Source of the DNA: Nanobdellota archaeon
GTDB lineage: Archaea > Nanobdellota > Nanobdellia > Pacearchaeales > GW2011-AR1
Direction of reading: 5' to 3'
Assembly: GCA_022561055.1 (NCBI GenBank)
Contig: JADFRY010000003.1
Span: forward strand, 35,357 to 99,356
Length of the DNA: 64,000 nucleotides
The translations under genes were made by a program, and so were the position numbers. Below are positions 7,928-57,223 of this stretch, piece by piece (the first letter of the stretch is position 1; each line of letters begins with the position of its first letter). The notes beneath the pieces were generated by a model that ran no database searches, was not told the DNA's origin, and saw only the letters and a program-made list of their open reading frames with translations.

Positions 7928-8602
7928 ATGGTAAGAAAAAGCGTTCAAAAAAAAGTTAAGAAAAGACTTTTTAGAAAAACAAAGGGCGAAAGAAAGATAG
8001 AAAAAGAATTGTTATGGATTGTTGGTTTTATAGCTTTTTTAGTTATAATTTTTTTGGTAGCAAGTTCTATATTTAAAGGTTTTAATCAAATTGAATATGA
8101 AGGTCTAATCTTTACCAAAGAAAGACTTGGAGAAATTCCTGTTTATCATTATTCTTATTATTTTGAAAATAAAGGAGTAATAATAAAATATAATTTATAT
8201 TTAAGGAATGATCCAAGGACTCTTGATGTGCCAGTTGAGGGGAAAGACATTATCTTTGATAGAGGCAAAAGGGTTTATATTTCTGTGAATGCCAGTGGTT
8301 TACAACAGTGTCCTTATAGTGTTCTTGCTGTAGCAGATCTTGCTAGTTTCCTTAGTGATAATCAATTTAATGTAAAGGGTGGAGACCCTGGCTTTTTTGA
8401 AGCTGGGGCTAAGAGACAAGAATGGGTAACTTGTGAAAACAAGCCCGGAAATGTAGTAATTCTGATAGTCGAAGGAAAAGAAACCAAAATTACTATAAAT
8501 AATAATTGTTATGAAATAACTGTAGCTAATTGTGAAATCTTAGAAGCGACCGAGAAATTTAGGGTGCAAAGCATTATTGATGCTAAAAAGTTTGAAGAAT
8601 AA
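7928..8602 (+). CDS. N-terminally membrane-anchored extracellular protein, paralog-like of 6183-6737
   Basis: Lys-rich N-terminus plus TM (LLWIVGFIAFLVIIFLVASSIF). C-terminal WVTCENKPGNVVILIVEGKETKITINNNCYEI resembles EKTCEENLIVWQEGEENKVYQEENCIFI. Confidence 0.5.
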   Translation: MVRKSVQKKVKKRLFRKTKGERKIEKELLWIVGFIAFLVIIFLVASSIFKGFNQIEYEGLIFTKERLGEIPVYHYSYYFENKGVIIKYNLYLRNDPRTLDVPVEGKDIIFDRGKRVYISVNASGLQQCPYSVLAVADLASFLSDNQFNVKGGDPGFFEAGAKRQEWVTCENKPGNVVILIVEGKETKITINNNCYEITVANCEILEATEKFRVQSIIDAKKFEE

Positions 8603-8620: not shown

Positions 8621-9262
8621 TTATTGTTTTGTCAGTTTATGCCGAGATTTAATATTTATTATTATGTAAAGAACAATAATTATTAATGCTATAAGTAAAA
8701 CAATTAAAGTAAGGAAACTCAGATTTTGTTTTATGAGTTCTAAATTATTCCCGAATATAAACCCGAGGTAAATTAAAATTCCTGCCCAGATTCCTGCTCC
8801 AAGAGATGTGAAGAAAATAAATTTTGGCACATTCATCCTTGAAAATCCTGCAGGAAGAGAAATTAACTGTCTGATTACAGGAATTAATCTTCCTACGAAA
8901 GTTGTTATTTCTCCATGTTTCGCAAAATATTTTTCAGATTTTAATATGCTTTTTTCAGTTAAGAAAAATATTTTTCCATATTTGAAAATTAATTTATTTA
9001 CTGCTCTTCTGCCTAAATGTAATGCGAGGAAGTAGTTTATTAATGCGCCTGCTAAACTTCCGAGCAAAGCTGATAAAAATACCAAACTGGCTATCATCTC
9101 TCCTCTCGAGACTAAGACTCCTGCTGGAATAAGAACAACCTCGCTGGGAAACGGTATAAATGAACTCTCAATTGCCATTAAAACAAAAATTCCGACGTAA
9201 TCTAAGGATCCAACTGTCTGAACCAAAAATTCTACAAAGTTTGTGAACAATTCTTTTAGCAT
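8621..9262 (-). CDS. DedA family (SNARE-associated/VTT domain) membrane protein
   Basis: FIPFPSEVVLIPAG and GRLIPVIRQLISLPAG motifs, multi-TM, 213 aa. Confidence 0.8.
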   Translation of the reverse strand: MLKELFTNFVEFLVQTVGSLDYVGIFVLMAIESSFIPFPSEVVLIPAGVLVSRGEMIASLVFLSALLGSLAGALINYFLALHLGRRAVNKLIFKYGKIFFLTEKSILKSEKYFAKHGEITTFVGRLIPVIRQLISLPAGFSRMNVPKFIFFTSLGAGIWAGILIYLGFIFGNNLELIKQNLSFLTLIVLLIALIIIVLYIIINIKSRHKLTKQ

Positions 9263-9263
9263 A

Positions 9264-9803
9264 TTATTTACTTTTAATACTTCTTATTTTTAAGTCTTTC
9301 ATTATATTTCTTATATCGGTATAAATAGGGATGGTTTTTATTCTGAATATTAAAACATTGCTAAACCAGATTAGTATTACTAAAATCGTGCTTCCGAAGT
9401 ACCATGTCGCTGCATGGGTTAAATCAAAATACTGGTATCCTTTGAACAAGAGAAGAGCGAAAATAATTATTCTCAAAATATTCAGTAATAGAAATGTAAC
9501 AAAGAGGAAAACAAGACTTTTTACTCTTATTTTTATTTTCATTGGCGTTGTTAAGTTTAAGATAAGAAGCAGATAATAGGCTGCACCGGCAACACAGGCA
9601 GGTATGATGCTCGCATAATATCCTTTAAAGAATATTACATTTCCAGGGAATAGAACTGCGTCGTATAAGAAGTTTAAAATCCAAAAAACCGGGTAAGTTG
9701 TTAAAGGAGTAAATATTAAATAAAAAATATAGAGGTTTGGAACTCCTAAAATAATTAAGATAAGATATCTTAAAGAAAGAAAGAAAACCCCTTTTTTATT
9801 CAT
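9264..9803 (-). CDS. Small exosortase/archaeosortase-family transpeptidase (179 aa)
   Basis: Polytopic. Candidate catalytic triad in family order: IIPACVAGAAY (Cys), LLNILRIIIF (Arg), DLTHAATWYFG (His). Confidence 0.6.
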   Translation of the reverse strand: MNKKGVFFLSLRYLILIILGVPNLYIFYLIFTPLTTYPVFWILNFLYDAVLFPGNVIFFKGYYASIIPACVAGAAYYLLLILNLTTPMKIKIRVKSLVFLFVTFLLLNILRIIIFALLLFKGYQYFDLTHAATWYFGSTILVILIWFSNVLIFRIKTIPIYTDIRNIMKDLKIRSIKSK

Positions 9804-10093
9804 TAGAATATTAGAAGGTCCGCGCTTAAAAAGGTAATTATTTCTGTTGACATATGCCTTAAAATATAGATGATTATTAAAGTGAACTATCCTGTGGCAA
9901 ACCCATAAGGTATAAAAAAAACAAAATGAGATTTTATTCTGAAAACTTTATGAATAAGATTTGAAGACTGAATTATCCATAACTAAGCGAGGTTCAATTA
10001 AATATTAGTAATTAATTGGATGATGAGAATAATATTTAATGGTTTTTTAGTATTTGTTATAGAGAAAAGTATTTACATAAAACAAACAAAGGA

Positions 10094-12142
10094 TTATCTT
10101 CTCGAAAGTCTGACAGCCACGAGTATTATTAATACTATAAGGATTATGTTTATTATAGCGATTAACCATATAAGACTATTTCCTTGAAGCCCGCTAAAAC
10201 TGAATCCTTTGTCTTCGCCTTCAATATCTTCAATTTCAACTAGCTGGACTTCAATCTCTCCTGTTATTATATCTCTTACTTCGAGTGTGAAAGATCGTGC
10301 GCCAGAAATGCCTTCTTTTACATTAAATATTAATTTAATTTCTTTGCTTTCGCCTGGACCTAAAGGCAATACTTCTTTTTGCGAGATGGAATCTAAATCA
10401 GCCCACGAGTTATAATCTTTTGCATTGATTGTAAATTTAGATGCTTCTGTTCCTGAGTTTGTGATCAATAAGTTAACAATAAGTTCTTCTCCTGCTTTTG
10501 CAGCCGAACCTAAAGGCAATTCTGAGATTATCACGTTGCCGGTTATTGATGGTGTTCTGCCACAACTAATTACTTCAAGAGAAGCTATCCATGTATCATC
10601 TGATTCATCAAAATAATCTCCTCTCTTATAATCATATTCTGTTCTGAATTCTAGAGTATATTGTTTTTCCTCTATTCCATCTGGAACAATGAAACTAAAT
10701 TCTACAGAAGCCTTATCTCCTTCGTCAAGGTCTTTCCTGATTATAAATTCTTCATTAACTTTTAAGTCTTTATCTTCCATAGTTACTCTAGTCTGGTCTT
10801 CTTCCCCCTCGCCTCCAACATTAAATACGTCAAGAGTAACAAAAACTGTTTCTCCACAAATAACTTCTTTAGGATTTATTACTATGCTGTCTTCGTCTAC
10901 AGCTATGATGTTGTCTTCATCCTCGACAACCTCAATCCTATCGAAGAACCTATCACTCAAATCATTTGACGTGTCAACACATAGATTTTCCTCTCCTAAA
11001 TCATCACTGTAAGCCTTTACCGCAAATTTATAATTGCCTAAATCATCAAAATCAGCAGGAACTTTAAATATGAATCTTGCGGTTTCTGTATCTTTATCCC
11101 TTATTTTTCCTATGTCAAATTCTTCTTCGTCCTTATTCTCAAAGTCTAAGTCTCTTATGACATTTATTCCACTAGAATCAAATAAAGCGAGCTCTACAAA
11201 TACATCATCTATATTTTCATCATCTATATTTTTAACATCGACTTCAATTTCTATAGTGTCTAAAAGTTGCCATTCATCATCTTTTCCTTTGCCTTTATTA
11301 TTTATATCGATGTCTCTTATAGTAAGATTTTCCTCACCTATCTGGCCGTTACTGCAGAAGGTTTTTTGAACAGTAATGGTAGCTGTATCTGTTGCTTCTG
11401 GATTACTTGAATCTTTAGCTTGAACTATTATATTATTATTTCCGAACTTAAGATTAGTAAGAGAATCTAAAATTACTGTGACATCAATCCCTGACGCTCC
11501 TAAGATTAAACCGAAATTGGATGAAGAGAAACTAGCTCCAAAATTTGTTGTCTCTGAAAGAACTATATTAAGTAAATTAATATTCCCATCATTGTTAATA
11601 ATTATTATTGCATCTTCACCAATATCTCTCGTTTGAGTTTTGGGGGTGATTGAGAGGGAAGGTGAACTGTCTACTGTTATTTCTAGATCTATATCTGGTA
11701 TTTGAGGGCTTCCACCAGTAGGATCATAAATAGCTGAAAATGAAATGCTTCCAGAATAAGTATTGGGTGCTGTTGTGAACTTATTGGTTTTATAGGTTAA
11801 GGTAATTAAATCTGAAGATGTTCCAGGAAGGATTTCTATACTCCCTAAATCTACAACGTTACTGGGAGAAATTGTTAAAGTAGAAGAACCTATTTTTGCA
11901 GCTGTCCAACTTCCAATACCTAAATCCAGTTCTACTAAATTTATTGAAATATCCTTAACTTTATTTGTTAGATGGTCATTTTTCAGGTTGAAAGTTACAT
12001 CAAAAGAATCTCCATGATTAATAGTAAGCTCATTACCTTGAACGTTGTCTGGGAAAACTATCTGAGCATCCACAACTCCGGCTGATAAAATCATGAATGC
12101 AAAAATTCCGAGAAATGTTAATAAATTCTTGGTAATGTTCAT
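10094..12142 (-). CDS. Large surface protein with CARDB/Ig-like repeats and C-terminal TM plus basic tail (candidate archaeosortase substrate)
   Basis: Signal peptide ...FAFMILSAGVVDAQ. Repeated beta-rich modules (VTLDVFNVGGEGE, LLITNSGTEASKFTI). C-terminus GFSFSGLQGNSLIWLIAIINIILIVLIILVAVRLSRR. Confidence 0.6.
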   Translation of the reverse strand: MNITKNLLTFLGIFAFMILSAGVVDAQIVFPDNVQGNELTINHGDSFDVTFNLKNDHLTNKVKDISINLVELDLGIGSWTAAKIGSSTLTISPSNVVDLGSIEILPGTSSDLITLTYKTNKFTTAPNTYSGSISFSAIYDPTGGSPQIPDIDLEITVDSSPSLSITPKTQTRDIGEDAIIIINNDGNINLLNIVLSETTNFGASFSSSNFGLILGASGIDVTVILDSLTNLKFGNNNIIVQAKDSSNPEATDTATITVQKTFCSNGQIGEENLTIRDIDINNKGKGKDDEWQLLDTIEIEVDVKNIDDENIDDVFVELALFDSSGINVIRDLDFENKDEEEFDIGKIRDKDTETARFIFKVPADFDDLGNYKFAVKAYSDDLGEENLCVDTSNDLSDRFFDRIEVVEDEDNIIAVDEDSIVINPKEVICGETVFVTLDVFNVGGEGEEDQTRVTMEDKDLKVNEEFIIRKDLDEGDKASVEFSFIVPDGIEEKQYTLEFRTEYDYKRGDYFDESDDTWIASLEVISCGRTPSITGNVIISELPLGSAAKAGEELIVNLLITNSGTEASKFTINAKDYNSWADLDSISQKEVLPLGPGESKEIKLIFNVKEGISGARSFTLEVRDIITGEIEVQLVEIEDIEGEDKGFSFSGLQGNSLIWLIAIINIILIVLIILVAVRLSRR

Positions 12143-12321: not shown

Positions 12322-12696
12322 ATGGTAATTCGTGCGCGTGAAAATTTATTTGGGGCATGGGCTTTTCTAATAGGAGTAGTTTTAGCTCTTGCTGTTGGTA
12401 TTTTAAGTGCAAGTCTTGGACAGCTTAATCCTCTTATCCTTGCCGTACTAGTCATTCTCGGCTTGGTTGTTGGTTTTGTCAATGTATCTGCAAAAGACGT
12501 TAATACTTTTTTAATGGCAGCCGTCTCTTTGGTAATAGTTAGTTTTATGGGTGCTGAAGGAATTGCAGGAATTGAATTCCTCAAAATTGGAATAGGTAAT
12601 ATTGTTTCTTCGACTTTGGGCGCCTTGTTGGTAATGCTGGTTCCTGCGACAATTGTTGTTGCAATAAAGAGTTTGTTCTCAATTGCTCAGAAGTAA
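12322..12696 (+). CDS. Small polytopic membrane protein, unknown function
   Basis: 124 aa, 3-4 predicted hydrophobic helices. SD-like GAGGTAAAGG upstream. Confidence 0.5.
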   Translation: MVIRARENLFGAWAFLIGVVLALAVGILSASLGQLNPLILAVLVILGLVVGFVNVSAKDVNTFLMAAVSLVIVSFMGAEGIAGIEFLKIGIGNIVSSTLGALLVMLVPATIVVAIKSLFSIAQK

Positions 12697-12988: not shown

Positions 12989-13369
12989 TTAGTAAAAACT
13001 TACAGGGTCTTTCTTTATCGGTTTTTGAGGAGCTTTATAAACTTCTGCAAATTCTGGGGTCACGAGAATCGTGTTTTCACCAAATCCTGCGATAGAGCCT
13101 TCGAGGGCGTCTACTGTTTTTTTAATTTTAGAAATTGACCTTTTTAATTCTATTACATCTTTTGCTTTCAAAGGCTTAATGTCAATCACTGCTATCGTAT
13201 AGCCCTCGCGCAAAGAATCAAGAATTTCATTCACATCATCATAACTTCTTAATGTAAAGGGTCTTACACGCACCTTGTCTTTTTTCTCTTCACCTTGAGC
13301 AAGGTCAATCTCAACATAATCCTCTTCAGAACTGTCTTTGCCAAACAATCTTTTTAAGTTGAAAGCCAT
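12989..13369 (-). CDS. sepF: Cell division protein SepF (FtsZ membrane anchor)
   Basis: Short amphipathic N-terminus MAFNLKRLFGK. DUF552-like core: RVRPFTLRSYDDVNEILDSLREGYTIAVIDIKPL...ALEGSIAGFGENTILVTP. Confidence 0.8.
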   Translation of the reverse strand: MAFNLKRLFGKDSSEEDYVEIDLAQGEEKKDKVRVRPFTLRSYDDVNEILDSLREGYTIAVIDIKPLKAKDVIELKRSISKIKKTVDALEGSIAGFGENTILVTPEFAEVYKAPQKPIKKDPVSFY

Positions 13370-13455
13370 AGATTATTTTAAATGAAACAGTATATAAATA
13401 TTATCGTATTGATTTATAATTATGTTCTAAAGTTACTCGGTAAACTTAGGAGTAG

Positions 13456-13806
13456 TTAAGATTTGCTTTTCTCTTTTGCGTTTAGCGCCTTTTTTGTTTC
13501 TTCTTTTAGTTCTTCTGCTTTAGATTCAATAAGTTTTTCTTGTTTTTCAATAGCGTTTACTCTTAATTCAAGAATTTTTTTCTTTTCTTCTAATTCCTTG
13601 AGAATAGTTTGTTTGTCTGCCTTTAGCATCACTGTCCCTATGACTTTGTATACTTCGTCATTTGTTTTTTTAATTTCTTCTAGGGCATTTATTGTTTCAT
13701 TTAATTCTAATTGTAAAGCCTGTTTTTGCATCATTAAGCCTTGTAAATTTTGTTCTAGAATCTGAAGCTCTTGAATTATTTCTTCAGTTTGTTCATCTAT
13801 GTTCAT
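13456..13806 (-). CDS. pfdB: Prefoldin beta subunit
   Basis: 116 aa coiled coil-hairpin-coiled coil: QELQILEQNLQGLMMQKQALQLELNE...VYKVIGTVMLK...LELRVNAIEKQE. Confidence 0.85.
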   Translation of the reverse strand: MNIDEQTEEIIQELQILEQNLQGLMMQKQALQLELNETINALEEIKKTNDEVYKVIGTVMLKADKQTILKELEEKKKILELRVNAIEKQEKLIESKAEELKEETKKALNAKEKSKS

Positions 13807-14985: not shown

Positions 14986-15059
14986 TGGGGTCGCTGGGAT
15001 TTGAACCCAGGTTGACAGGTCCCAAACCTGTAGTCTTAACCAAGCTGGACTACGACCCC
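14986..15059 (-). tRNA. tRNA-Pro (anticodon UGG)
   Basis: Reverse complement is GGGGTCG-TA-GTCC..GACT-ACAGG-TTTGGGA-CCTGT-..-CTGGG-TTCAAAT-CCCAG-CGACCCC-A. Full cloverleaf; CCA not encoded. Confidence 0.9.
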
Positions 15060-17328: not shown

Positions 17329-18423
17329 TTATTCTTTAATAAATTTAATTCCGAGCTCTTCTTCTAATTGGTCTTGCTCTCCCTTTGAGAAAGTCATATC
17401 AGATCCGAGAATTTGAGAGCTTTTTACGCCGGTGACAATTAACATGACTTTGATTGATTTTTCCATGTCAGCTGAGATTTGCGCTCCTGAGATTATTTTT
17501 GCATCTGGGGAGATTTTATTTCCGACTGCTTCCATAACTATTTTATATTCATCTAATGACATGTCAGGGCCACCAATTATATTTACCAATGCTCCTCCTG
17601 CATCCTCTATATTTACGTCTAAAAGAGGGTTATTAATTGCTCTATCTACCGCTTCTAAAGCTCTGTTTTCAGATACGTCTGATTCGCCTATGCCTATCAG
17701 AGAAACACCTCCGTTGGACATAACTGCTTTAACATCGGCAAAGTCTAGATTAACTAATCCAGATGATGTAATTAGTTCTGCAATGCCTTTAACCGCATTC
17801 GTAAGGATTTCGTCTGCAACTTTGAAGGCTGTGTGTAAAGGCAATTCTGGCGCGAGTTCAAGAAGTTTATCATTGGGAATAACGATTAAAGTATCTGTAA
17901 CAGATTCCATTCTTTCTAAACCATATTGTGCGTTTTCTATTCTTTTCTGCCCTTCTACTGTGAATGGCAAAGTTACCACTCCTATGACTAAAGCTCCTTG
18001 TTTTTTTGCAATTTCTGCTACTATTGGAGCTGCTCCGGTTCCTGTTCCACCGCCTAGACCACATGTAATAAAAATCATATCTGAATTTGATAATTTTTTT
18101 CTAATTTCTTGTTCAGACTCACGGGCAGCTTCTTCTCCTATTTTTGGATTACTGCCAGCACCAAGGCCATTTGTTAATTCCCTCCCTATTAGGATTTTAT
18201 GATCAGAATTAGTGTAAAGTAAATCCTGGGCATCGGTATTCATTGCTATAACTTCACATCCTTTAATTCCTATTTCTTTCATTCTTGAGACAGAATTACC
18301 TCCCCCACCACCGATACCAACTACTTTTATTCTCGTTGACTGGGTTTGAAGTAAAGATTCTAGCTCTTGATCAATAGATGCAACATCTTTGGGACCCTCT
18401 CTTTCTATGGTTATTTCATCCAT
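17329..18423 (-). CDS. ftsZ: Cell division GTPase FtsZ
   Basis: GIGGGGGNSV and the tubulin signature GLGGGTGTGAAP. Confidence 0.95.
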   Translation of the reverse strand: MDEITIEREGPKDVASIDQELESLLQTQSTRIKVVGIGGGGGNSVSRMKEIGIKGCEVIAMNTDAQDLLYTNSDHKILIGRELTNGLGAGSNPKIGEEAARESEQEIRKKLSNSDMIFITCGLGGGTGTGAAPIVAEIAKKQGALVIGVVTLPFTVEGQKRIENAQYGLERMESVTDTLIVIPNDKLLELAPELPLHTAFKVADEILTNAVKGIAELITSSGLVNLDFADVKAVMSNGGVSLIGIGESDVSENRALEAVDRAINNPLLDVNIEDAGGALVNIIGGPDMSLDEYKIVMEAVGNKISPDAKIISGAQISADMEKSIKVMLIVTGVKSSQILGSDMTFSKGEQDQLEEELGIKFIKE

Positions 18424-26397: not shown

Positions 26398-26514
26398 GTG
26401 TGTTAGAGGATTAAATTCCTATTTAAATATTTATATTAAAAAGGTTCGGAATGTCCAAAACCTTAAAAGTAATGTTAATTGTATAATTTAACCCTCATCG
26501 AAGGATTTCAACAT

Positions 26515-26596
26515 GCCCGGATGGCACAATGGTACTGCGCTCGCCTTGAGAGCGAGTTTCTGAAAGGATCTCCCGGTTCGATTCCGGGTCCGGGCG
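26515..26596 (+). tRNA. tRNA-Ser (anticodon UGA), class II with long variable arm
   Basis: GCCCGGA acceptor. CTCGC-CTTGAGA-GCGAG anticodon arm. Variable arm TTCT-GAA-AGGA. T arm CCCGG-TTCGATT-CCGGG. TCCGGGC-G 3' end. CCA not encoded. Confidence 0.85.
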
Positions 26597-26702
26597 TTTA
26601 TTTTCTGAATCTAAGTGTATTACCGGTTAGATTACTTCAAAATATACTTGTTTTGAAGGATCCGAGAATCTTTGATTCTCGTGAGCCGGGTCCGGGCGTT
26701 TT
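26584..26702 (+). repeat. Direct repeat of the tRNA-Ser 3' end (CCGGGTCCGGGCGTTT), copies start 102 nt apart
   Basis: Copies at 26584-26599 and 26686-26701. The second is preceded by a degenerate copy of the variable-arm segment (TTTTGAAGGATC vs TTTCTGAAAGGATC) and by two perfect 8-bp hairpins. Confidence 0.7.
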
Positions 26703-48236: not shown

Positions 48237-51008
48237 ATGGATGAAGCAGATAATATAATAGAAGAAAAGAAAGGCGAAGAGCCACCTGAGGGGAAAAAAG
48301 AGAAAAATTCTATAGAGGAAAATAAACTTATCAAAGAGAGAAAAGAGAAAATTATTAACTTTGTAAAACAGAAGTATAATTGGATTAGTTATGTTGTTTT
48401 AGCGATTATTGTTTGGATAGCTATAAGAATTAGAACAAGAAATCTCTCTGGTTTACGTGATGTGACTACTGGCGGATGGACTCTTGGTCCAGATCTGGAT
48501 CCTTTCTTATTTCTAAGATGGGCTAAATACATTGTAGAAAATGGAACTCTTTTTTCTCTTGATATGATGAGAAATGTTCCGATAGGTTTTAATACTAAAG
48601 CTGAACTACTTCTCCACCCATATATGATTGCTTGGTTTCATAACATTGTTTCTTATTTTAAAGACATATCTGTAGAACAATCTGCTGCCTTATATCCTGT
48701 TTTCTTTTTTGCAATAACAGTAATAGTTTTTTTCTTTTTAGTAAGAAAGATATTTATTGATAAACTTGGGGAAAGAGATGCAAATATTATCGCCCTTGTA
48801 TCTTCTTTTTTCTTAACTGTTCTTCCGCCGCTTCTACCGAGAACAATAGCAGGCATTCCTGAAAAAGAATCTGCAGCATTTTTCTTTTTGTTTATGTCTT
48901 TCTACTTGTTTTTATCAGCCTGGAAGTCAAAACATAAATATGGTAAATATATCTTGGCAATTTTAGCTGGGACGTCAACTGCTGGAATGGCTTTTATTTG
49001 GGGAGGATTTAATTTTATCTTTGTTATTTTATCCCTCAGTACTTTTATAGCGTTTGTTCTTGGTCAGGTAAACAAAGAAAAATTTTATATATATTCTATC
49101 TGGATATTTTCAGCTTTTATTATTATGCCATTGTTTAGCTCTAGGTATACTATAACTGGTTTAGTGAGCTCTGTTACTACTGGATTTGCCTTCTTAGTAT
49201 TTTTGATTATGGCGATTCATCTTATAATATATGGCACGAAAGTTAAAAATTACTTTAAATTAAATAAACTTGAAAAAGTTCCTCCTCAAATAATCTCTCT
49301 TAGTGTGACAATCTTAATAACCATTATTTTCGCATCGGTATTTTTTGGTCCTACATTTATTTTTGACAGGGCTGATACTATCACACAAGTTTTGGTAAAG
49401 CCCACAGTAAGCAGGATTGGTGTAACTGTAGCAGAAAACAGGCAGCCTTACTTTAATGAGTGGTCTAATAGTTTTGGTCCTATTATAATAGGAATTCCTA
49501 TTTTCTTCTGGTTATTTTTTATAGGTTCAATATATCTCTTTTTTAATATGGTTAAAGTTTTAAGGAAGAAAGAGAGATGGATTTTAACTTCGGGATATTT
49601 TGTTTTTCTTGTTGCGATTATATTCAGCAGATTCAGAAGTAATCATATATTAAACGGAGAGAATTTCACCAGTCTTTCTCTATATTTCATAGGGGTAATT
49701 ATATTTTTGGGAATTATGGGATTTTATTATTATAAGTACCACATGGAAGGGCTTGGAGATAAATTTAAGAGTATAGATTTTGGCATGATATTTATTTTTG
49801 TTTTTTTCTTCTTTAGCATTGTCTCTGCAAGAGGAGCGGTAAGACTGATAATGATGCTTGTTCCATCTGCCTCTATAATTGTGAGTTATTTTGTGGTTTC
49901 TATATCTAGCAAAGCAAAAGAAATTAAAGATAAAGGTAGTAAATGGGTTGGTTGGTTTATAATTGCTATCATAATAATTTCTGTTATTTTCTCAGGTTAT
50001 CAGTTTTATAAGATAAGCAATAGTACTGCTCAAGGTTACATACCCTCGGTATATAATCAACAATGGCAAAAAGCAATGTCTTGGGTAAGAGATAACACCC
50101 CAGAAAATGCTGTTTTTGGACATTGGTGGGATTATGGGTATTGGATTCAAACAATTGGACAGAGAGCTACTATTCTTGATGGAGGAAATGCGCAATCTTA
50201 TTGGAATCATTTAATGGGAAGGTATGCCTTAACAGGACCTGATGAGATGCAAGCCTTAGAATTCTTATATGCTCATAATACAACTCATTTCTTAATTGAT
50301 TCAACGGACATAGGAAAATATACTGCATTTTCTTCTATTGGAAGTGATGAAAACTACGACAGAAGAAGTTGGATCCATATTTTCTTGAAAGATAACACTC
50401 AAACCCAAGAAACAAAAAACTCAATAACTTTCTTTTATCGCGGAGGAAGTGTTCTTGATGAAGACATATTATATGAAGAAAATGATTCAAAAATATTTTT
50501 ACCTGGGGGTGGAGCAGGAATAGGTGGAATATTAGTTGAAAGAGATAATTCAGGAAAATTATCTGGCCAGCCTTTAGGAATTTATATTTATCAACAAAAC
50601 CAATATAACTTACCACTGAGATATGCATATGATAATGGCGAATTCATAGATTTTGGATCAGGCATTGAGGCAGGTATTTTCTTAATGCAAAAAATAGATG
50701 AGAATGCGGGGCAAGTGCAAATTGATCCTAATGGTGCTTTACTTTATTTAAGCAGGAGAACTGTTAAGTCCCAATTAGCAAAGTTCTATCTTTATAGTGA
50801 AGAAAATGAATTCTTCAAGATTGCTCACATAGAGAGTGATTTCATTATAAATAATCTAAGGTCACAAGGTCTTAATGTTGAAGAATTTGCATATTTCCGA
50901 GGATTTAGAGGTCCTATAAAAATATGGGAAATAAATTATCCTGAAGATATGGAATTTAAAGAAGAGTTTATAGATACTGCATACCCTGAATCATTGCAGA
51001 TAGCTTAA
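48237..51008 (+). CDS. aglB: Oligosaccharyltransferase AglB (STT3 homolog)
   Basis: 13-TM-like N-domain plus soluble C-domain with the invariant WWDYGYWI motif (GHWWDYGYWIQT). Confidence 0.9.
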   Translation: MDEADNIIEEKKGEEPPEGKKEKNSIEENKLIKERKEKIINFVKQKYNWISYVVLAIIVWIAIRIRTRNLSGLRDVTTGGWTLGPDLDPFLFLRWAKYIVENGTLFSLDMMRNVPIGFNTKAELLLHPYMIAWFHNIVSYFKDISVEQSAALYPVFFFAITVIVFFFLVRKIFIDKLGERDANIIALVSSFFLTVLPPLLPRTIAGIPEKESAAFFFLFMSFYLFLSAWKSKHKYGKYILAILAGTSTAGMAFIWGGFNFIFVILSLSTFIAFVLGQVNKEKFYIYSIWIFSAFIIMPLFSSRYTITGLVSSVTTGFAFLVFLIMAIHLIIYGTKVKNYFKLNKLEKVPPQIISLSVTILITIIFASVFFGPTFIFDRADTITQVLVKPTVSRIGVTVAENRQPYFNEWSNSFGPIIIGIPIFFWLFFIGSIYLFFNMVKVLRKKERWILTSGYFVFLVAIIFSRFRSNHILNGENFTSLSLYFIGVIIFLGIMGFYYYKYHMEGLGDKFKSIDFGMIFIFVFFFFSIVSARGAVRLIMMLVPSASIIVSYFVVSISSKAKEIKDKGSKWVGWFIIAIIIISVIFSGYQFYKISNSTAQGYIPSVYNQQWQKAMSWVRDNTPENAVFGHWWDYGYWIQTIGQRATILDGGNAQSYWNHLMGRYALTGPDEMQALEFLYAHNTTHFLIDSTDIGKYTAFSSIGSDENYDRRSWIHIFLKDNTQTQETKNSITFFYRGGSVLDEDILYEENDSKIFLPGGGAGIGGILVERDNSGKLSGQPLGIYIYQQNQYNLPLRYAYDNGEFIDFGSGIEAGIFLMQKIDENAGQVQIDPNGALLYLSRRTVKSQLAKFYLYSEENEFFKIAHIESDFIINNLRSQGLNVEEFAYFRGFRGPIKIWEINYPEDMEFKEEFIDTAYPESLQIA

Positions 51009-51009
51009 G

Positions 51010-52017
51010 ATGGTAAATTATATTTTGATGATTCCAATTTTAGTAAGTTTTTTTGTAACTCTGTTTATGATTCCAAGCTGGATAAAAAGGGCAAGAAAAG
51101 CAAATTTATTAGGAAAGGATATTAATAAATTTAAAAAAACAGAATTGCCAGAAGCTGGAGGAGTTACTGTCGTTACAGGTTTTGTATTAGGTTCATTACT
51201 ATATATAGCATTGAATACATTTATTTTTAATACAAGCGAAAACTTTATTGAATTGTTCGCTCTTTTAAGCACAATATTATTGATAACGTTTATAGCATTT
51301 GTAGATGATATTTTAGGATGGAAAATAGGCTTAAGAAAAAGAACAAGGTTAATTCTTGTTGCCTTGGCAGCCATACCTCTGATAGTTATAAATGCTGGTG
51401 AGTCTGAAGTAGGAATTCCTCTTTTAGGAACAATTGATTTGGGTCTTATCTATCCTTTAATAATTATCCCTATAGGAATCATAGGAGCAACCACGACATT
51501 TAACTTTTTAGCAGGATTTAATGGTCTCGAAGCAGGGCAGGGAATTTTATTAATGTTTGCTGTAGGAATAGTAGCTTTCTTTATAGGCAGCCCATGGCTT
51601 ACAATTATTGCTTTATGTATGGCGGCTGCATTACTTGCTTTTTTACTTTATAATTTTTATCCTGCCAAGGTCTATCCTGGCGATTCATTAACATATGCTG
51701 TCGGCGGTTTAATAGCTATTATTGCTATTTTAGGTAATTTTGAAAAAATAGCTGTATTCTTCTTTATACCTTATATAATAGAAACTGGATTAAAACTAAG
51801 AGGAAAATTAGTAAAACAATCTTTCGGTAAACCAAAAAAAGATGGGAGTTTAGATTTGGCTTATAAAAAGATTTATAGTTTAAATCATATAGCGATTTTA
51901 TTAATGAAAAAACTAGGCTGGAAGGCAACTGAGAAGCGAGTTGTATATTTTATATGGGGCTTTCAGATTCTCATTATTATCTTAGGATTTATAATATTTA
52001 AAAATGGAATATTCTAA
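51010..52017 (+). CDS. GT4-family polyprenyl-phosphate HexNAc-1-phosphate transferase (AglH/Alg7/MraY-like)
   Basis: FVDDILG and NFLAGFNGLEAGQG motifs. Polytopic. Starts 2 nt after aglB. Confidence 0.85.
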   Translation: MVNYILMIPILVSFFVTLFMIPSWIKRARKANLLGKDINKFKKTELPEAGGVTVVTGFVLGSLLYIALNTFIFNTSENFIELFALLSTILLITFIAFVDDILGWKIGLRKRTRLILVALAAIPLIVINAGESEVGIPLLGTIDLGLIYPLIIIPIGIIGATTTFNFLAGFNGLEAGQGILLMFAVGIVAFFIGSPWLTIIALCMAAALLAFLLYNFYPAKVYPGDSLTYAVGGLIAIIAILGNFEKIAVFFFIPYIIETGLKLRGKLVKQSFGKPKKDGSLDLAYKKIYSLNHIAILLMKKLGWKATEKRVVYFIWGFQILIIILGFIIFKNGIF

Positions 52018-52028
52018 GGAGTGTTAAA

Positions 52029-53225
52029 TTGAATAAAGGTTTATTAAAAGGAAGTATAATTCTCTTAATATCTTTTAATTTATTTAATTTTCTTAATTTT
52101 ATTTTCAATATTTCCATGGCGCGCCTCCTAACTCTTGCAGAATATGGTGTCCTTACAACTTTAATCTCCTTAATTATCATTTTTGCGATTTTTAGTGAAT
52201 CTATCCAAACAGTTTTATCAAAGTATACGACAAAAGAGAAAGTCAGGGGAAAACTAAAAAATCTTGCGAAAAAAGCTTTTCGTAAGGCAGGAACTATTTC
52301 AATAATAATTTTAATTATTTATCTCATAATTGGTTTATTTATTGCACAGTTTTTGAATATTAGTTATTCTTTGATTAGTTTAACAGGGATTATGTTGTTT
52401 ATTTCCTTTTTCATACCTGTAACAAGGGGGATTCTCCAAGGCAGAAAACAATTTTCTTCTCTTGGAATAAATATGGTTTGGGAAGGACTTATTAAACTTG
52501 TACTTTCTATTGGGCTTGTAATTCTTGGAATAGGGGTACTTGGGGCTCTTCTAGGAATGATTATAGGCTCTGCCGGGGCTTTCTTAATTTCATTATTTAG
52601 CCTCAGAGATATTTTTATCACAAAAGAAAAAAAGATAAAAACTCCAGAAATATATACATATACAAAACCTGTCTTTATAACAACCTTAGCCATTGTGCTT
52701 TTTTTAAGCTTTGATATAATTCTAGCAAGAAGATTCTTTAGTCCAGACATAGTAGGAGTTTATGCTATAGGATCAACAATAGCAAAAATTATTTTTATTG
52801 GAACTCACCCAATAAGCAAAGCTATGTTTCCGATATCTAGTGAAACAAAAAAACCTAAAGATTCTCTTAAAGTATTAAAAAATTCTATTGCAATTTTAGT
52901 GGTATTAATAGCTCTAGCATTAGTTTTTATTTTCTTTTTTGCAGATTTAATTATCTGGCTCTTCGCTGGAAGATATATTCCTGAAGCTGCTAGCATACTT
53001 TTCTATTTGGCAATTGCAATGAGTCTCTTATCATTGACCAATCTAATCTTACTCTATAATCTTTCCCTTGGAATATTAAAATCATCTTGGCTTTTATTAG
53101 TTTTTATAGTAATTCAAGTTATTCTTCTCAGCGTATTTAACTCAAACTTAATTGAATTTTCATTTGCTTTAATAACTTCAGCAGCGGCTTTTCTATGGGG
53201 TGCTATATTCTTGCTAAAGAAGTAA
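52029..53225 (+). CDS. MOP-superfamily oligosaccharide flippase (Wzx/AglR-like)
   Basis: 398 aa with about 12 TM. N-terminal LNFIFNISMARLLTLAEYGVL is typical of polysaccharide biosynthesis proteins. TTG start in the ORF track. Confidence 0.7.
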   Translation: MNKGLLKGSIILLISFNLFNFLNFIFNISMARLLTLAEYGVLTTLISLIIIFAIFSESIQTVLSKYTTKEKVRGKLKNLAKKAFRKAGTISIIILIIYLIIGLFIAQFLNISYSLISLTGIMLFISFFIPVTRGILQGRKQFSSLGINMVWEGLIKLVLSIGLVILGIGVLGALLGMIIGSAGAFLISLFSLRDIFITKEKKIKTPEIYTYTKPVFITTLAIVLFLSFDIILARRFFSPDIVGVYAIGSTIAKIIFIGTHPISKAMFPISSETKKPKDSLKVLKNSIAILVVLIALALVFIFFFADLIIWLFAGRYIPEAASILFYLAIAMSLLSLTNLILLYNLSLGILKSSWLLLVFIVIQVILLSVFNSNLIEFSFALITSAAAFLWGAIFLLKK

Positions 53226-53263
53226 TTAGTTAATTTTATATGGTAAAATGAACTACTTTCAGC

Positions 53264-53950
53264 ATGAGAAAAAAGCAGAAGAATTCACGTAGATTGTTTA
53301 TTCCACTTGTAATTATAATAATCGTAGGATTAGTTATTATTTTTATATTGAATGATAATGAGATAGAGTCTACTGAAGAAAGTGCCGTTTCTATCGGAGA
53401 TTCTAACTTTATCCAGGATGAGTTCCCTAATGCGGAAGGGTTGCATTGGGGCCACATGCCAGTTACTTATTTTTTCTCAAGGGAAGCCTGTGGAGTCAAA
53501 CAAGAAAAAAGAATTATAGATGCTTTTAATATATTAGAAGAGAGAACAGAGGGAATTGTTTCTTTTAAAGAATTAGAGTCTGTTTCGGAAGTAAATATAT
53601 ACATAATCTGTATAGAAAAAAGTCAGAAAAGTATAGCAGAGGAACTTGATAGAACTGGGGGTGTTAGACGTTATGTAGCATATTACTACAACATAAGCAA
53701 TATAATAACAGAAGCAGGAATTACTTTTTTCCTCGGGCCAGGAAAAATTCCTCATAGAGATTGTAATTTATTTCCTGATGAAGAAATTCGCAATATATTA
53801 CTTGCCTCTGGTTTTGAATTAACCAATAAAACAACAAATCCTACAAATGAAACAAATCACATCTTAAGTGAGAATTTACGCCCGCGTCGTTGCCCATATG
53901 AAGTAAATGAAGATATTGTAGATAAACTAATAGATACATATAGTGAGTAA
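53264..53950 (+). CDS. N-terminally anchored hypothetical protein
   Basis: Basic N-terminus plus TM (LFIPLVIIIIVGLVIIFIL). Extracytoplasmic domain of unknown function, no HExxH. Confidence 0.4.
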   Translation: MRKKQKNSRRLFIPLVIIIIVGLVIIFILNDNEIESTEESAVSIGDSNFIQDEFPNAEGLHWGHMPVTYFFSREACGVKQEKRIIDAFNILEERTEGIVSFKELESVSEVNIYIICIEKSQKSIAEELDRTGGVRRYVAYYYNISNIITEAGITFFLGPGKIPHRDCNLFPDEEIRNILLASGFELTNKTTNPTNETNHILSENLRPRRCPYEVNEDIVDKLIDTYSE

Positions 53951-54010
53951 AGATAGAATTGTGTCCAAGTAGTCAAATAACTTTAAAAGGCCTCGCTTTT
54001 ATAAATTTTA

Positions 54011-54787
54011 ATGAAAACTATATCCATAATCATTCCAGCTCATAATGAGGAAAAAAGAATTGGGAAAACCTTAGAGTCTTATTATCATTATTTTGAAGCT
54101 CTTAAAAAAAATAAAATTTTAGATTATGAGATCTTGGTAGTAATAAATAACACTCGAGATAAAACTGAAGAAATAGTTAGGAGTGCTATTTTAAAGAATA
54201 AAAAAATTTCTTACTTAAATTTAGAGAAGGGTGGAAAGGGATATGCTATTATAGAAGGATTTAAAGATGCATTAAGAAGAGATAATGATCTAATAGGATT
54301 TGTAGATGCTGACCTCGCCACAAGTCCAGAAGCTTTTTACGATTTAGTGAAAAAAATAGATAATTACGATGGGATTATTGCTGGCCGTTATTTAAGGGGG
54401 GCGGTTATCAAACCTAAAAATACCTTTGCCAGAATAATGGCCTCACGAGTTTATAATATACTTATTCGCTCTATTTTTCTAATGCCTTATAGAGATACAC
54501 AATGCGGTGCAAAGCTATTTAGACATAAAGCACTAGAAGCCGTAATAAATAATATTGGCATGACAAAATTTGCCTTTGATGTTGAGTTAATTTATAAAAT
54601 AAGAAAGAGAGGTCTCAGAATAAAAGAAGTTCCAACAATATGGGCAGATAAAGGATATGCTACAATAAACTTCTGGCAGTCGGGTCCTTGGATGGCGCTT
54701 GCTATAATTAGGCTAAGAATTTTAAACTCTCCCTTAAGAAGATTTATAAGAATTTATGATAAATTAGTGGGGTTTGTTCCAAAATGA
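54011..54787 (+). CDS. GT2 glycosyltransferase, dolichyl-phosphate hexose synthase-like
   Basis: ISIIIPAHNEEKRIGKTL, GFVDADLATSP (DxD), QCGAKLF. Confidence 0.85.
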   Translation: MKTISIIIPAHNEEKRIGKTLESYYHYFEALKKNKILDYEILVVINNTRDKTEEIVRSAILKNKKISYLNLEKGGKGYAIIEGFKDALRRDNDLIGFVDADLATSPEAFYDLVKKIDNYDGIIAGRYLRGAVIKPKNTFARIMASRVYNILIRSIFLMPYRDTQCGAKLFRHKALEAVINNIGMTKFAFDVELIYKIRKRGLRIKEVPTIWADKGYATINFWQSGPWMALAIIRLRILNSPLRRFIRIYDKLVGFVPK

Positions 54788-56234: not shown

Positions 56235-56274
56235 AATTTATAAAACCAAAGCCTTAAGTGGGTTGATAGATAAG

Positions 56275-56356
56275 ATGAGAATAGTAGTCACAGGGGGATC
56301 GGGATTCATAGGAAGCAATTTTCTTAGATTTATGATAGAGAAATATCCTGAATATG
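56275..56356 (+). repeat. Left arm of an 82-nt perfect inverted repeat (5' end of paralog A)
   Basis: Base-by-base comparison shows 56275-56356 identical to the reverse complement of 59699-59780. Identity starts at the ATG and ends abruptly after codon 27. Confidence 0.95.
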
Positions 56357-57219: not shown

Positions 57220-57223
57220 TTTT

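What the first reader, a model, noticed from the sequence alone, without database searches (positions are those of the whole stretch)
8621..12142. Miniature archaeosortase with adjacent candidate substrate and DedA protein
ORF 9264-9803 is only 179 aa but shows the ordered Cys/Arg/His signature of exosortase/archaeosortase transpeptidases: PACVAG, NILRI, LTHAATWYFG. The gene immediately upstream on the same strand encodes a 682-aa signal-peptide protein with CARDB/Ig-like repeats. It ends in a tripartite sorting-signal-like tail: GFSFSGLQGNS, a 22-residue hydrophobic helix, then RLSRR. Directly downstream, 1 nt away, is a DedA-family protein; DedA proteins have been implicated in lipid and polyprenyl-phosphate flipping. 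The signal does not match the named motifs I know (PGF-, PEF-, VPXXXP-CTERM). This may therefore be an uncharacterised sortase/signal pair. The putative S-layer protein (3411-5927) has no such tail.
Basis: partly seen in the sequence, partly recalled or inferred. Interest (0 to 1): 0.62.

Follow-up and report, generated by a model that had tools for sequence, protein, structure and literature searches.

The report
Pacearchaeosortase, its substrate, lipid-carrier flippase
This is an already catalogued surface-protein sorting pair of Pacearchaeota (a small archaeosortase and its single target protein), but the gene slot right behind the enzyme turns out to hold interchangeable, even unrelated, polyprenyl-phosphate flippase families, which hints at a link between protein sorting and lipid-carrier recycling.

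Summary
The three minus-strand ORFs exist as described. The 179-aa protein matches NCBIfam NF033505 "pacearchaeosortase" (209 bits, cut-off 80). The 682-aa protein matches NF033506 "PACE-CTERM-PROT" (542 bits, cut-off 110). Cys70, Arg111 and His130 are invariant. The tail (G-x-N-x-x-[LI]-W-x-x-G-x-x-N…R-x-S-R-R) is conserved. In 581 kb it occurs only on this protein family, upstream of the sortase in 60/63 loci. It is a dedicated one-enzyme, one-substrate system, known only from database models: no paper held in the library names it.

The new part concerns the third gene. The slot directly after the sortase holds a UptA-like DedA (as here), an E. coli-DedA-like paralog only 26% identical, a PF06695 protein, or a non-homologous DUF368/PopT protein. 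Occupants switch between close relatives and usually overlap the sortase stop codon. DedA and DUF368 share one known activity, polyprenyl-phosphate flipping. Both DedA classes keep that subfamily's hallmark residues. I infer a dolichyl-phosphate translocase co-expressed with the sortase. Whether it serves the sortase reaction itself is unproven: the whole block is syntenic and about a quarter of loci lack the gene.

The parts
10094..12142 (-). PACE-CTERM protein: a 682-aa acidic secreted surface protein (NCBIfam name 'putative S-layer protein'), the presumed sole substrate of the sortase
   Evidence: NF033506 at 542.5 bits against cut-off 110, full length 3-627/627. CARDB and DUF4352 domains. 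125 D+E against 53 K+R, and only 2 N-X-S/T sequons. Upstream of the sortase on the same strand in 60/63 loci.
12062..12142 (-). N-terminal signal peptide region (about residues 1-27, MNITKNLLTFLGIFAFMILSAGVVDAQ)
   Evidence: Read directly from the sequence. No signal-peptide predictor was run, so this is inferred.
10097..10207 (-). PACE-CTERM sorting signal (residues 646-682): GFSFSGLQGNS, a 21-residue helix LIWLIAIINIILIVLIILVAV, then RLSRR
   Evidence: Tail alignment of 59 homologs: W, N, L and I invariant, A in 58/59, basic end conserved. The tail HMM hits only this protein family in 581 kb.
9804..10093 (-). 290-nt spacer between substrate and sortase. It has oligo-T tracts just after the substrate stop and no ORF of 60 aa or more
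   Evidence: Sequence and ORF list. In most loci this spacer is only 16-60 nt. Any role in attenuation or as an internal promoter is speculation.
9264..9803 (-). Pacearchaeosortase, 179 aa, with four predicted TM segments
   Evidence: NF033505 at 209.1 bits against cut-off 80, 4-166/167. 967 homologs, some named pacearchaeosortase by NCBI. AF2 model pLDDT 78.6. Hydropathy and positive-inside rule.
9594..9596 (-). Codon of the presumed catalytic Cys70
   Evidence: Invariant in 37/37 and 13/13. Lies about 5 residues into TM2 from the predicted outer face.
9471..9473 (-). Codon of conserved Arg111
   Evidence: Invariant. Lies in the outer half of TM3.
9414..9416 (-). Codon of conserved His130
   Evidence: Invariant. 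Lies at the outer start of TM4.
8621..9262 (-). DedA-family protein (213 aa), UptA-like 'H class': the predicted polyprenyl(dolichyl)-phosphate translocase occupying the variable slot after the sortase
   Evidence: PF09335 at 78 bits. Best NCBIfam match is UptA at 118 bits, below the cut-off of 250. E32, E41, R125 and R131 invariant. Slot occupancy and replacement by other families.
7928..8602 (+). Conserved neighbour: 224-aa N-terminally anchored protein of unknown function, convergent with the cassette
   Evidence: Present in 39/40 evaluable loci. No Pfam or NCBIfam hit.
6183..6737 (+). Conserved neighbour: 184-aa N-terminally anchored protein of unknown function
   Evidence: Present in 29/29 evaluable loci. 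No family hit.
3411..5927 (+). Conserved neighbour: 838-aa S-layer-like protein without a membrane anchor
   Evidence: PF05124 S_layer_C at 26.6 bits against cut-off 23.9. Present in 21/22 loci. No C-terminal TM.
12322..12696 (+). Conserved neighbour: 124-aa small membrane protein, divergent from the substrate gene
   Evidence: Present in 32/32 evaluable loci. No family hit.

Best explanation
Window 8621-12142 (minus strand) is the standard Pacearchaeota surface-protein sorting cassette.

(1) The 682-aa acidic Ig-like-repeat protein is exported by its signal peptide and held in the membrane by its C-terminal helix.

(2) The 179-aa pacearchaeosortase is a four-helix membrane Cys/Arg/His transpeptidase whose active site lies in the outer-leaflet half of the membrane. 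It recognises the conserved G-x-N-x-x-[LI]-W...N helix of this one protein and removes the helix and basic tail through a thioester intermediate. It then passes the new C-terminus to an amine-bearing membrane or envelope acceptor. This step is inferred by analogy with Haloferax ArtA.

(3) The DedA gene 1 nt downstream is co-transcribed. It is most likely a polyprenyl-phosphate (in archaea, dolichyl-phosphate) translocase that returns the glycan carrier lipid to the cytoplasmic leaflet. It would therefore be made together with the envelope-maturation enzyme.

Shown: family memberships, invariant residues, 1:1 enzyme-substrate synteny, and repeated replacement of the slot occupant by other translocase families. 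Inferred: cleavage, the acceptor, the transported lipid, and any direct dependence of the sortase on the translocase.
For: Family membership: NF033505 at 209 bits (cut-off 80) and NF033506 at 542 bits (cut-off 110). C70, R111 and H130 are invariant and fall in the predicted outer membrane half.

The tail is conserved and restricted to this family. The substrate is upstream on the same strand in 60/63 loci.

Slot occupancy: a DedA lies immediately downstream on the same strand in 39/55 distinct loci, mostly with -4 to +3 nt spacing, and in 6 of 7 further contigs. There are two DedA classes only 26% identical, while their sortases are 52% identical between classes and 52-56% within. The L class meets or nearly meets the E. 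coli-DedA equivalog NF008102 (226-272 bits, cut-off 236), and the H class is UptA-like.

Both classes keep the COG0586 UndP-flippase hallmarks, two acidic and two basic re-entrant-tip residues, in 25/25 and 15/15 sequences (criterion from PMC10127716).

The same slot holds PF06695 in L028/L049 and DUF368/PopT in L076/L067. The 4/4 nearest DUF368 relatives sit in the identical slot behind bona fide pacearchaeosortases.

State switches occur inside well-supported clades: L059(L)+L036/51(H) 100%, L024(H)+four DUF368 loci 99%, and L-class monophyly 0/200.

The window carries an STT3/GT4/Wzx-type glycosylation cluster, so polyprenyl-phosphate carriers are in use. No translocase-family hit lies among the 10 large ORFs of that cluster that were scanned, and no second DedA-, DUF368- or PF06695-like ORF occurs anywhere in the window.

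Literature: archaeal DUF368 was proposed as a DolP recycler and H. volcanii DUF368 complements a V. cholerae mutant. The ArtA mechanism and its lipid-supply partners were found through synteny.
Against: There is no experimental evidence for this family at all, and no paper in the library names it.

The whole 15-20 kb block, including SepF, prefoldin, L11 and FtsZ, is collinear across these genomes. The outer neighbours are retained better (84-100%) than the DedA (71%). Adjacency alone is therefore weak evidence.

About a quarter of loci have no translocase gene in the slot, yet keep an intact sortase and tail. Unrelated genes (Tsp45I restriction enzyme, FwdC-like) also land at this site, so it tolerates insertions.

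The window's DedA is below NCBIfam's UptA cut-off (118 against 250). PetA, a PE transporter, clusters with UptA-type DedAs, so sequence alone cannot fix the lipid.

The substrate is not enriched in N-glycosylation sequons (window 2 against 7 expected; family median 4 against 7.6). PF06695 has no known function, and my own single-sequence hhalign did not link it to DedA.
Confidence: 0.65

Rival explanations
1. The DedA is a general housekeeping membrane protein that sits next to the sortase only because gene order in this part of Pacearchaeota genomes is frozen. On this reading there is no functional coupling to the sortase or its substrate.
For: Block-wide collinearity includes unrelated housekeeping genes (SepF 24/28, prefoldin 21/25, L11, FtsZ). 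The DedA is the least retained member (39/55). Loci with an empty slot keep an intact sortase and tail. Unrelated insertions occur at the same site.
Against: Frozen synteny predicts one orthologous occupant. Instead, four families occupy the slot. Two of them are non-homologous but share one known biochemical activity. They lie on the same strand (one inverted exception, L030) and mostly abut or overlap the sortase stop codon. Switches occur between close relatives.
Confidence: 0.25
2. The DedA flips an ethanolamine-type phospholipid (archaetidylethanolamine) to the outer leaflet. There its amine resolves the sortase thioester and gives a C-terminal lipid anchor. This would be the DPANN counterpart of the ArtA-PssA-PssD partnership.
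For: ArtA processing in Haloferax needs PssA/PssD, and the amine-lipid model was itself discovered from artA-pssA-pssD synteny. The DedA member PetA distributes PE and clusters with UptA-type DedAs. Many DPANN lack lipid synthesis, so a transporter rather than a synthase beside the sortase would make sense.
Against: The slot is also filled by DUF368/PopT, for which only polyprenyl-phosphate transport is known. Both DedA classes carry the acidic and basic hallmarks of the UndP-flippase subfamily. No PssA/PssD-like gene was seen in the cassette.
Confidence: 0.1
3. The C-terminal helix is a permanent transmembrane anchor. The small 'sortase' does not cleave it, for example because it acts as a chaperone or insertase, or on another target.
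For: No processing has ever been shown for this family. The TIGR04178 exosortase/archaeosortase signature model scores 22.3 bits, just under its cut-off of 23. No solved structure exists to confirm an active site.
Against: Cys/Arg/His are invariant across about 50 sequences at 50-80% identity. The tail has invariant polar and aromatic positions (W, N) that a simple anchor would not need. Strict 1:1 co-occurrence is the pattern of enzyme-substrate pairs.
Confidence: 0.08
4. One reading: an uncharacterised, unnamed sortase/signal pair of a new type.
For: No paper in the searchable library names it. PGF-, PEF- and VPXXXP-CTERM models do not hit.
Against: Both partners match dedicated curated NCBIfam models far above cut-off. 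GenBank proteins are already named pacearchaeosortase.
Confidence: 0.03

Closest known systems
NCBIfam NF033505 pacearchaeosortase / NF033506 PACE-CTERM-PROT (putative S-layer protein)
   Same: The window's two proteins are full-length, high-scoring members. The neighbourhood and tail are typical of the family.
   Different: Nothing differs for the pair itself. The database models say nothing about the variable translocase slot.
ArtA / PGF-CTERM system of Haloferax volcanii (archaeosortase A)
   Same: A membrane Cys/Arg/His enzyme with a tripartite C-terminal signal on an S-layer-type protein. Accessory lipid-related genes were found by synteny (PssA/PssD).
   Different: No PGF motif is present. 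The enzyme is about 60% of ArtA's length, and no ArtA model appears among the hits at E <= 1 (best relatives: ArtE 20.8 bits, heimdallarchaeosortase 29.5 bits, both below cut-off). There is one dedicated adjacent substrate instead of many dispersed ones. The neighbouring accessory gene is a lipid transporter, not a lipid synthase.
Small archaeosortases/exosortases (ArtE TIGR04124, exosortase X NF046081, heimdallarchaeosortase NF045528)
   Same: Similar small size (model lengths 153-199) and weak but real similarity over the catalytic core, residues about 8-154.
   Different: All score far below their cut-offs, so this is a separate family.
UptA (DedA, COG0586) and PopT (DUF368) undecaprenyl-phosphate translocases of bacteria
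   Same: The slot proteins belong to these two families. The hallmark residues are conserved. The either/or pattern mirrors the DedA-DUF368 anticorrelation in bacterial genomes. Archaeal DUF368 has been proposed as a DolP recycler.
   Different: They fall below NCBIfam equivalog cut-offs. The host is archaeal, so the carrier would be dolichyl phosphate. The genes are placed behind a sortase, not next to aglB or PAP2 phosphatase genes as reported.
Sortase A / lipid II in Gram-positive bacteria; PEP-CTERM exosortases in EPS loci (from my own knowledge, not tested here)
   Same: These are precedents for a sorting transpeptidase whose acceptor or genomic context is tied to polyprenyl-linked glycan intermediates.
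   Different: Sortase A is not homologous to archaeosortases. No acceptor is known for any exosortase or for this family.

Membership tests
Pacearchaeosortase (NF033505), within the exosortase/archaeosortase superfamily | Score at or above the curated HMM cut-off over the full length | tested here: met
   209.1 bits against cut-off 80, E = 4e-62, residues 9-171 on model 4-166/167.
Pacearchaeosortase (NF033505), within the exosortase/archaeosortase superfamily | Ordered conserved Cys, Arg and His | tested here: met
   C70, R111 and H130 invariant in 37/37 and 13/13.
Pacearchaeosortase (NF033505), within the exosortase/archaeosortase superfamily | Generic exosortase/archaeosortase signature model TIGR04178 | tested here: inconclusive
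   22.3 bits against cut-off 23, residues 65-148 on model 2-91/97. This is marginally below threshold.
Pacearchaeosortase (NF033505), within the exosortase/archaeosortase superfamily | Polytopic membrane protein with the catalytic residues at the extracytoplasmic side | tested here: inconclusive
   Four hydrophobic segments. The positive-inside rule places C70, R111 and H130 in the outer half. The AF2 model is helical with pLDDT 78.6. No structural homolog is available to check against.
Pacearchaeosortase (NF033505), within the exosortase/archaeosortase superfamily | Co-occurrence with proteins carrying a cognate tripartite C-terminal signal | tested here: met
   A tail-bearing protein lies upstream on the same strand in 60/63 loci. 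Of the further contigs, 11 show the canonical tail and the twelfth (L091) is interrupted by unresolved bases.
Pacearchaeosortase (NF033505), within the exosortase/archaeosortase superfamily | Cys-dependent C-terminal cleavage or transpeptidation of the substrate | not testable with these tools
   Needs expression and mass spectrometry. No publication on this family was found.
PACE-CTERM protein (NF033506) | Score at or above the curated HMM cut-off over the full length | tested here: met
   542.5 bits against cut-off 110, residues 5-682 on model 3-627/627.
PACE-CTERM protein (NF033506) | C-terminal motif, hydrophobic helix and basic cluster at the extreme C-terminus | tested here: met
   Window tail ...GLQGNSLIWLIAIINIILIVLIILVAVRLSRR. 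Family logo with invariant W, N, L and I.
PACE-CTERM protein (NF033506) | Actually forms an S-layer | not testable with these tools
   Only the database name suggests it. The protein is acidic with Ig-like repeats. A second S-layer-like protein is always nearby.
ArtA / PGF-CTERM system | PGF signature motif in the tail, and an ArtA-type enzyme | tested here: not met
   No PGF in the tail. No PGF-CTERM or ArtA model appears among NCBIfam hits at E <= 1.
DedA superfamily, COG0586 (UndP-flippase subfamily) | VTT/DedA domain | tested here: met
   PF09335 at 78.4 bits against cut-off 33.9.
DedA superfamily, COG0586 (UndP-flippase subfamily) | [quoted passage not shown] | tested here: met
   E32, E41, R125 and R131 in 25/25 H-class sequences; E, D, R, R in 15/15 L-class sequences (criterion).
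DedA superfamily, COG0586 (UndP-flippase subfamily) | NCBIfam UptA equivalog cut-off | tested here: not met
   118.4 bits against 250 (NF052604) and 109.9 against 300 (NF052605). I therefore do not call it UptA, only UptA-like.
DedA superfamily, COG0586 (UndP-flippase subfamily) | Polyprenyl-phosphate transport activity | not testable with these tools
   The only support is indirect: in-slot interchange with DUF368/PopT.

The most novel reading that the evidence does not exclude
The translocase is not just co-expressed. It serves the sortase reaction itself. On this reading the pacearchaeosortase transfers its substrate onto a polyprenyl-phosphate-linked acceptor, an archaeal analogue of sortase A using lipid II, and each turnover releases carrier lipid that the slot protein must flip back. 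This would identify the long-unknown acceptor class of exosortase/archaeosortase enzymes. It would also explain why bacterial exosortases sit in polysaccharide loci.
Probability: 0.12. Interest if true: 0.8.

Novelty: already known. Interest (0 to 1): 0.42.

Why it matters
The enzyme/substrate pair itself adds nothing new, because it is a catalogued family. The value lies in two points.

First, this family has been defined only by HMMs. It is a very clean one-enzyme, one-substrate, adjacent-gene system with a sharply conserved signal. That makes it a simpler model for archaeosortase specificity than ArtA, which has many substrates.

Second, a slot behind the sortase is filled interchangeably by two DedA paralogs, a PF06695 protein or a non-homologous DUF368/PopT protein. 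This is, as far as the searchable literature shows, an unreported link between archaeosortases and polyprenyl-phosphate translocases. It supplies natural-experiment evidence that COG0586 DedA, DUF368 and possibly PF06695 proteins are functionally equivalent in archaea. It nominates candidates for the still unidentified archaeal dolichyl-phosphate recycling flippase in DPANN. It also offers a testable lead on what acceptor archaeosortases use.

Tried and rejected
- **Structural search.** Foldseek of the AF2 sortase model against the PDB gave nothing below E = 1.5. Sequence and profile searches of the PDB for the sortase, the substrate and the 838-aa protein gave no hits. No structural membership test was therefore possible.
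- **Genome-contig scan.** The scan with the single sortase protein returned only 2 loci. The alignment-based metagenome scan was the productive one.
- **First distance calculation.** It mishandled overlapping genes and was redone.
- **First bootstrap script.** It timed out at 280 s and was rewritten with numpy.
- **PF06695 against DedA.** hhalign of a single PF06695 sequence against my DedA alignment was negative (probability 0.1). The superfamily link rests on Okawa et al. only.
- **N-glycosylation idea.** I tested whether the substrate is an N-glycoprotein, which would explain a DolP recycler. Sequons are not enriched.
- **Further tail-bearing proteins.** None were found in the window or the loci.
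- **Transcript evidence.** Only DNA metagenome runs (marine sediment) hold the locus, so co-transcription could not be checked.
- **Literature gaps.** Haft et al. 2012 (PMC3256604) is not held. Searches for pacearchaeosortase/PACE-CTERM, and for any sortase-DedA/DUF368 link, found nothing relevant.
- **184-aa and 224-aa neighbours as paralogs.** Only marginal similarity was found.
- **RNA elements.** Rfam and tRNA scans show nothing in the cassette.
- **Substrate structure.** I did not predict it. That would have needed a further whole-database search, and the answer would not change the verdict.

Full report
**1. Observation.**
One base separates the last two, and 290 nt separate the first two. 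The quoted motifs are present. The region has the same low G+C content (about 0.30-0.33) as the rest of the window.

**2. Identity of the enzyme and its substrate.**
- The 179-aa protein matches NCBIfam NF033505 "pacearchaeosortase" over its full length (209.1 bits, cut-off 80, E = 4e-62).
- The 682-aa protein matches NF033506 "PACE-CTERM-PROT, putative S-layer protein" over its full length (542.5 bits, cut-off 110, E = 1.6e-162).
- Pfam has no model for the enzyme. It finds CARDB and DUF4352 Ig-like domains in the substrate.
- A database search returned 967 homologs of the enzyme, several already named pacearchaeosortase in GenBank MAGs of Pacearchaeota/Nanoarchaeota.
- The two genome hits are Candidatus Pacearchaeota MAGs, and the window's own DNA is found in marine sediment metagenomes.

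No paper in the searchable library contains either name. The family therefore exists only as curated models, without experiments.

**3. The enzyme.**
In 37 aligned homologs, C70, R111 and H130 are invariant, as are N83, R93, N108 and W134. The same holds in 12 further loci. The AF2 model is a helical bundle with a short β-hairpin before Cys70 (pLDDT 78.6, pTM 0.67).

Hydropathy gives four TM segments. The positive-inside rule places the basic loop 86-96 and the basic C-terminal helix in the cytoplasm. This puts C70, R111 and H130 in the outer-leaflet half (inference).

No solved structure resembles it, by fold (best E = 1.5) or by profile. Small size is not unique: related models for ArtE, exosortase X and heimdallarchaeosortase are 153-199 positions long and give weak sub-threshold hits.

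**4. The signal.**
I fetched 82 loci holding 73 distinct sortases. A homolog of the 682-aa protein lies upstream on the same strand in 60 of 63 evaluable loci, usually 16-60 nt away.

Fifty-nine tails align without trouble. The consensus is G-x-N-x-x-[LI]-W-[VI]-I-G-x-[VI]-N-[VL]-x-L-I-x-L-I-I-x-V-A-V-[RK]-x-S-[RK]-[RK]-end, with W, N, L and I invariant.

A tail HMM searched with filters off over all ORFs of the window and loci (581 kb) found the tail only on this protein family. A cruder scan of the window found no second tail. This is a dedicated one-enzyme, one-substrate system.

An invariant Asn and Trp in the outer part of the substrate helix, together with invariant Asn residues in the enzyme's helices, suggest recognition inside the membrane. 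The cleavage site is unknown.

**5. The third gene and its slot.**
The window's DedA has a VTT domain. Its best NCBIfam match is UptA, below cut-off.

A DedA lies immediately downstream of the sortase on the same strand in 39 of 55 distinct evaluable loci, mostly with a 4-nt overlap to a 3-nt gap. The same is true in 6 of 7 additional long contigs. By itself this is weak evidence, because the whole block is collinear in these genomes:

| Neighbour | Retained in evaluable loci |
|---|---|
| 224-aa protein (7928-8602) | 39/40 |
| 184-aa protein (6183-6737) | 29/29 |
| 838-aa S-layer-like protein (3411-5927) | 21/22 |
| 124-aa membrane protein (12322-12696) | 32/32 |
| SepF (12989-13369) | 24/28 |
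| Prefoldin β (13456-13806) | 21/25 |
| DedA in the slot | 39/55 |

Further out, L37ae, L11, Spt5 and FtsZ are also collinear. The DedA is the least conserved member of the block.

What makes the slot interesting is what fills it.
- **(a) Two DedA classes.** They are only 26% identical to each other, while the partner sortases are as similar between classes (52%) as within them (52-56%). One class is UptA-like, as in the window. The other meets or nearly meets the E. coli-DedA equivalog NF008102 (226-272 bits, cut-off 236).
- **(b) PF06695.** In L028 and L049 the slot holds a 155-aa PF06695 protein overlapping the sortase stop. Okawa et al. place PF06695 in the DedA superfamily. My own single-sequence hhalign did not confirm this.
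- **(c) DUF368/PopT.** In L076 (1 nt after the stop) and L067 (8-nt overlap) the slot holds a DUF368/PopT protein (PF04018, 216 bits). This family is unrelated to DedA.
- **(d) Reverse test.** The four nearest database relatives of that DUF368 protein that lie on contigs long enough to show the neighbourhood (62-67% identity, independent samples) all sit in the same slot. Each follows a protein scoring 220-250 bits on the sortase profile, with C/R/H intact, and a canonical tail-bearing substrate.
- **(e) Switches between close relatives.** On bootstrapped trees of concatenated flanking proteins the occupant changes within well-supported clades. L-class L059 groups with H-class L036/L051 (100%). 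H-class L024 groups with four DUF368 loci (99%). The PF06695 pair groups with an empty-slot locus (100%). Empty-slot loci nest inside H-class clades (100%). Monophyly of the L-class loci has 0/200 support.
- **(f) Hallmark residues.** Both DedA classes keep, without exception, the two acidic and two basic re-entrant-tip residues that Todor et al. give as the hallmark of the UndP-flippase subfamily COG0586.

COG0586 DedA and DUF368 proteins share one known activity, polyprenyl-phosphate translocation, and they tend to replace each other in bacterial genomes. Archaeal DUF368 has been proposed as the dolichyl-phosphate recycler and is often next to aglB. The Haloferax DUF368 protein partly complements a Vibrio mutant.

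I therefore read the slot as "polyprenyl(dolichyl)-phosphate translocase". This favours the carrier-lipid reading over the phospholipid reading. The caveat is that PetA, a PE transporter, clusters with UptA-type DedAs.

**6. Why would it sit behind a sortase?**
The organism uses such carriers. About 36 kb away the window encodes an STT3/AglB-like protein, a GT4 polyprenyl-phosphate sugar-phosphate transferase, a Wzx-like flippase, GT2 transferases and sugar-nucleotide enzymes. No translocase-family hit appears among the ten large ORFs of that cluster that I scanned. No second DedA-, DUF368- or PF06695-like ORF exists in the 64 kb.

The most economical reading is a carrier-recycling translocase co-expressed with the envelope-maturation enzyme. 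A direct chemical link, with the sortase acceptor carried on a polyprenyl phosphate, is possible but unsupported.

Evidence against a simple glycoprotein link: the substrate has only 2 sequons against 7 expected, and the family median is 4 against 7.6.

Evidence against any obligatory link:
- About a quarter of loci have no translocase gene in the slot, yet keep the enzyme and tail.
- Unrelated genes (Tsp45I, a FwdC-like protein) also insert there.

The precedent for taking such synteny seriously is the artA-pssA-pssD cluster of Methanosarcina, which led to the lipid-anchoring model for ArtA. No paper in the library links sortases with DedA, DUF368 or PopT.

**7. Verdict.**
The genes are right, "unnamed pair" is wrong, and the DedA hint is fruitful.
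- The feature at the given coordinates is an already known, database-catalogued system.
- The new element is the interchangeable translocase slot. This is a comparative-genomic inference of moderate interest that suggests direct experiments.

Noticed in passing
window 3411-8602 (+ strand): A conserved trio lies convergent with the cassette: an 838-aa S_layer_C-like protein without a membrane anchor (21/22 loci), a 184-aa protein (29/29) and a 224-aa protein (39/40). The two small proteins are N-terminally anchored and of unknown function. They share only a marginal C-terminal Cys-containing similarity. Together with the anchored PACE-CTERM protein, this could be a two-component envelope (an anchor plus a canopy). 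That is speculation.
   Followed up: partly
window 6926-7846 (+): A 306-aa ORF sits between the two conserved small genes. It has no homolog in any of the 73 distinct loci and no Pfam or NCBIfam hit, so it is a strain-specific insert in an otherwise frozen block. From memory, its 'LPDGW...NG...LPNL.G.FLRG' stretch resembles phage tail-collar-type motifs. This was not tested.
   Followed up: partly
window 12322-12696 (+): A 124-aa small multi-pass membrane protein lies divergent from the substrate gene. It is present in 32/32 evaluable loci and has no family assignment.
   Followed up: partly
window 48237-59780: A dolichol-phosphate-type glycosylation cluster: STT3/AglB-like 923 aa (weak, 27.6 bits), GT4 (51010-52017), Wzx-like flippase (52029-53225), two GT2 genes, and three epimerase/dehydratase genes. 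No translocase-family hit was found among the ten large ORFs scanned.
   Followed up: partly
window 12989-13806 and 17329-18423 (- strand): SepF, prefoldin β and FtsZ lie next to the surface-protein cluster, and SepF and prefoldin stay collinear with it across genomes (FtsZ is also seen in L083). In Haloferax, ArtA and the S-layer protein act at midcell (PMC7157517), so a division/envelope gene neighbourhood may be meaningful.
   Followed up: no
window 9804-10093: The substrate-sortase spacer is 290 nt here, against 16-60 nt in most loci. It has oligo-T runs right after the substrate stop and no ORF. In other loci with long spacers, small extra genes are inserted (e.g. L084 129 aa, L094 96 aa with a weak FG-GAP hit).
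   Followed up: partly
L063:4479-5978 and L073:1-804: A second, shorter PACE-CTERM-PROT paralog (216 bits on NF033506) sits directly upstream of the sortase. Its tail is non-canonical: a TM helix is followed by about 20 extra residues, with no W...N motif. The canonical substrate lies further upstream in L063.
   Followed up: partly
L046:3559-4347; L001:6770-7780; L030:927-1559: Exceptions at the slot. A Tsp45I-type restriction enzyme is inserted in L046. A FwdC/GXGXG-like gene plus a 100-aa ORF is inserted between the sortase and DedA in L001. An L-class DedA lies in inverted orientation in L030.
   Followed up: partly
window 2649-3008 (-): An HVO_A0114-family protein (PF25212) is also collinear with the block in other genomes (L083, L084, L086, L092-L094).
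   Followed up: no
window 14986-15059 (-) and 26514-26597 (+): tRNA-Pro(TGG) and tRNA-Ser(TGA) are the only Rfam or ARAGORN hits in the window.
   Followed up: yes
window 60818-62482 (-) and 471-2423 (+): Several sizeable ORFs have no Pfam hit (554 aa; 314, 179 and 165 aa).
   Followed up: no
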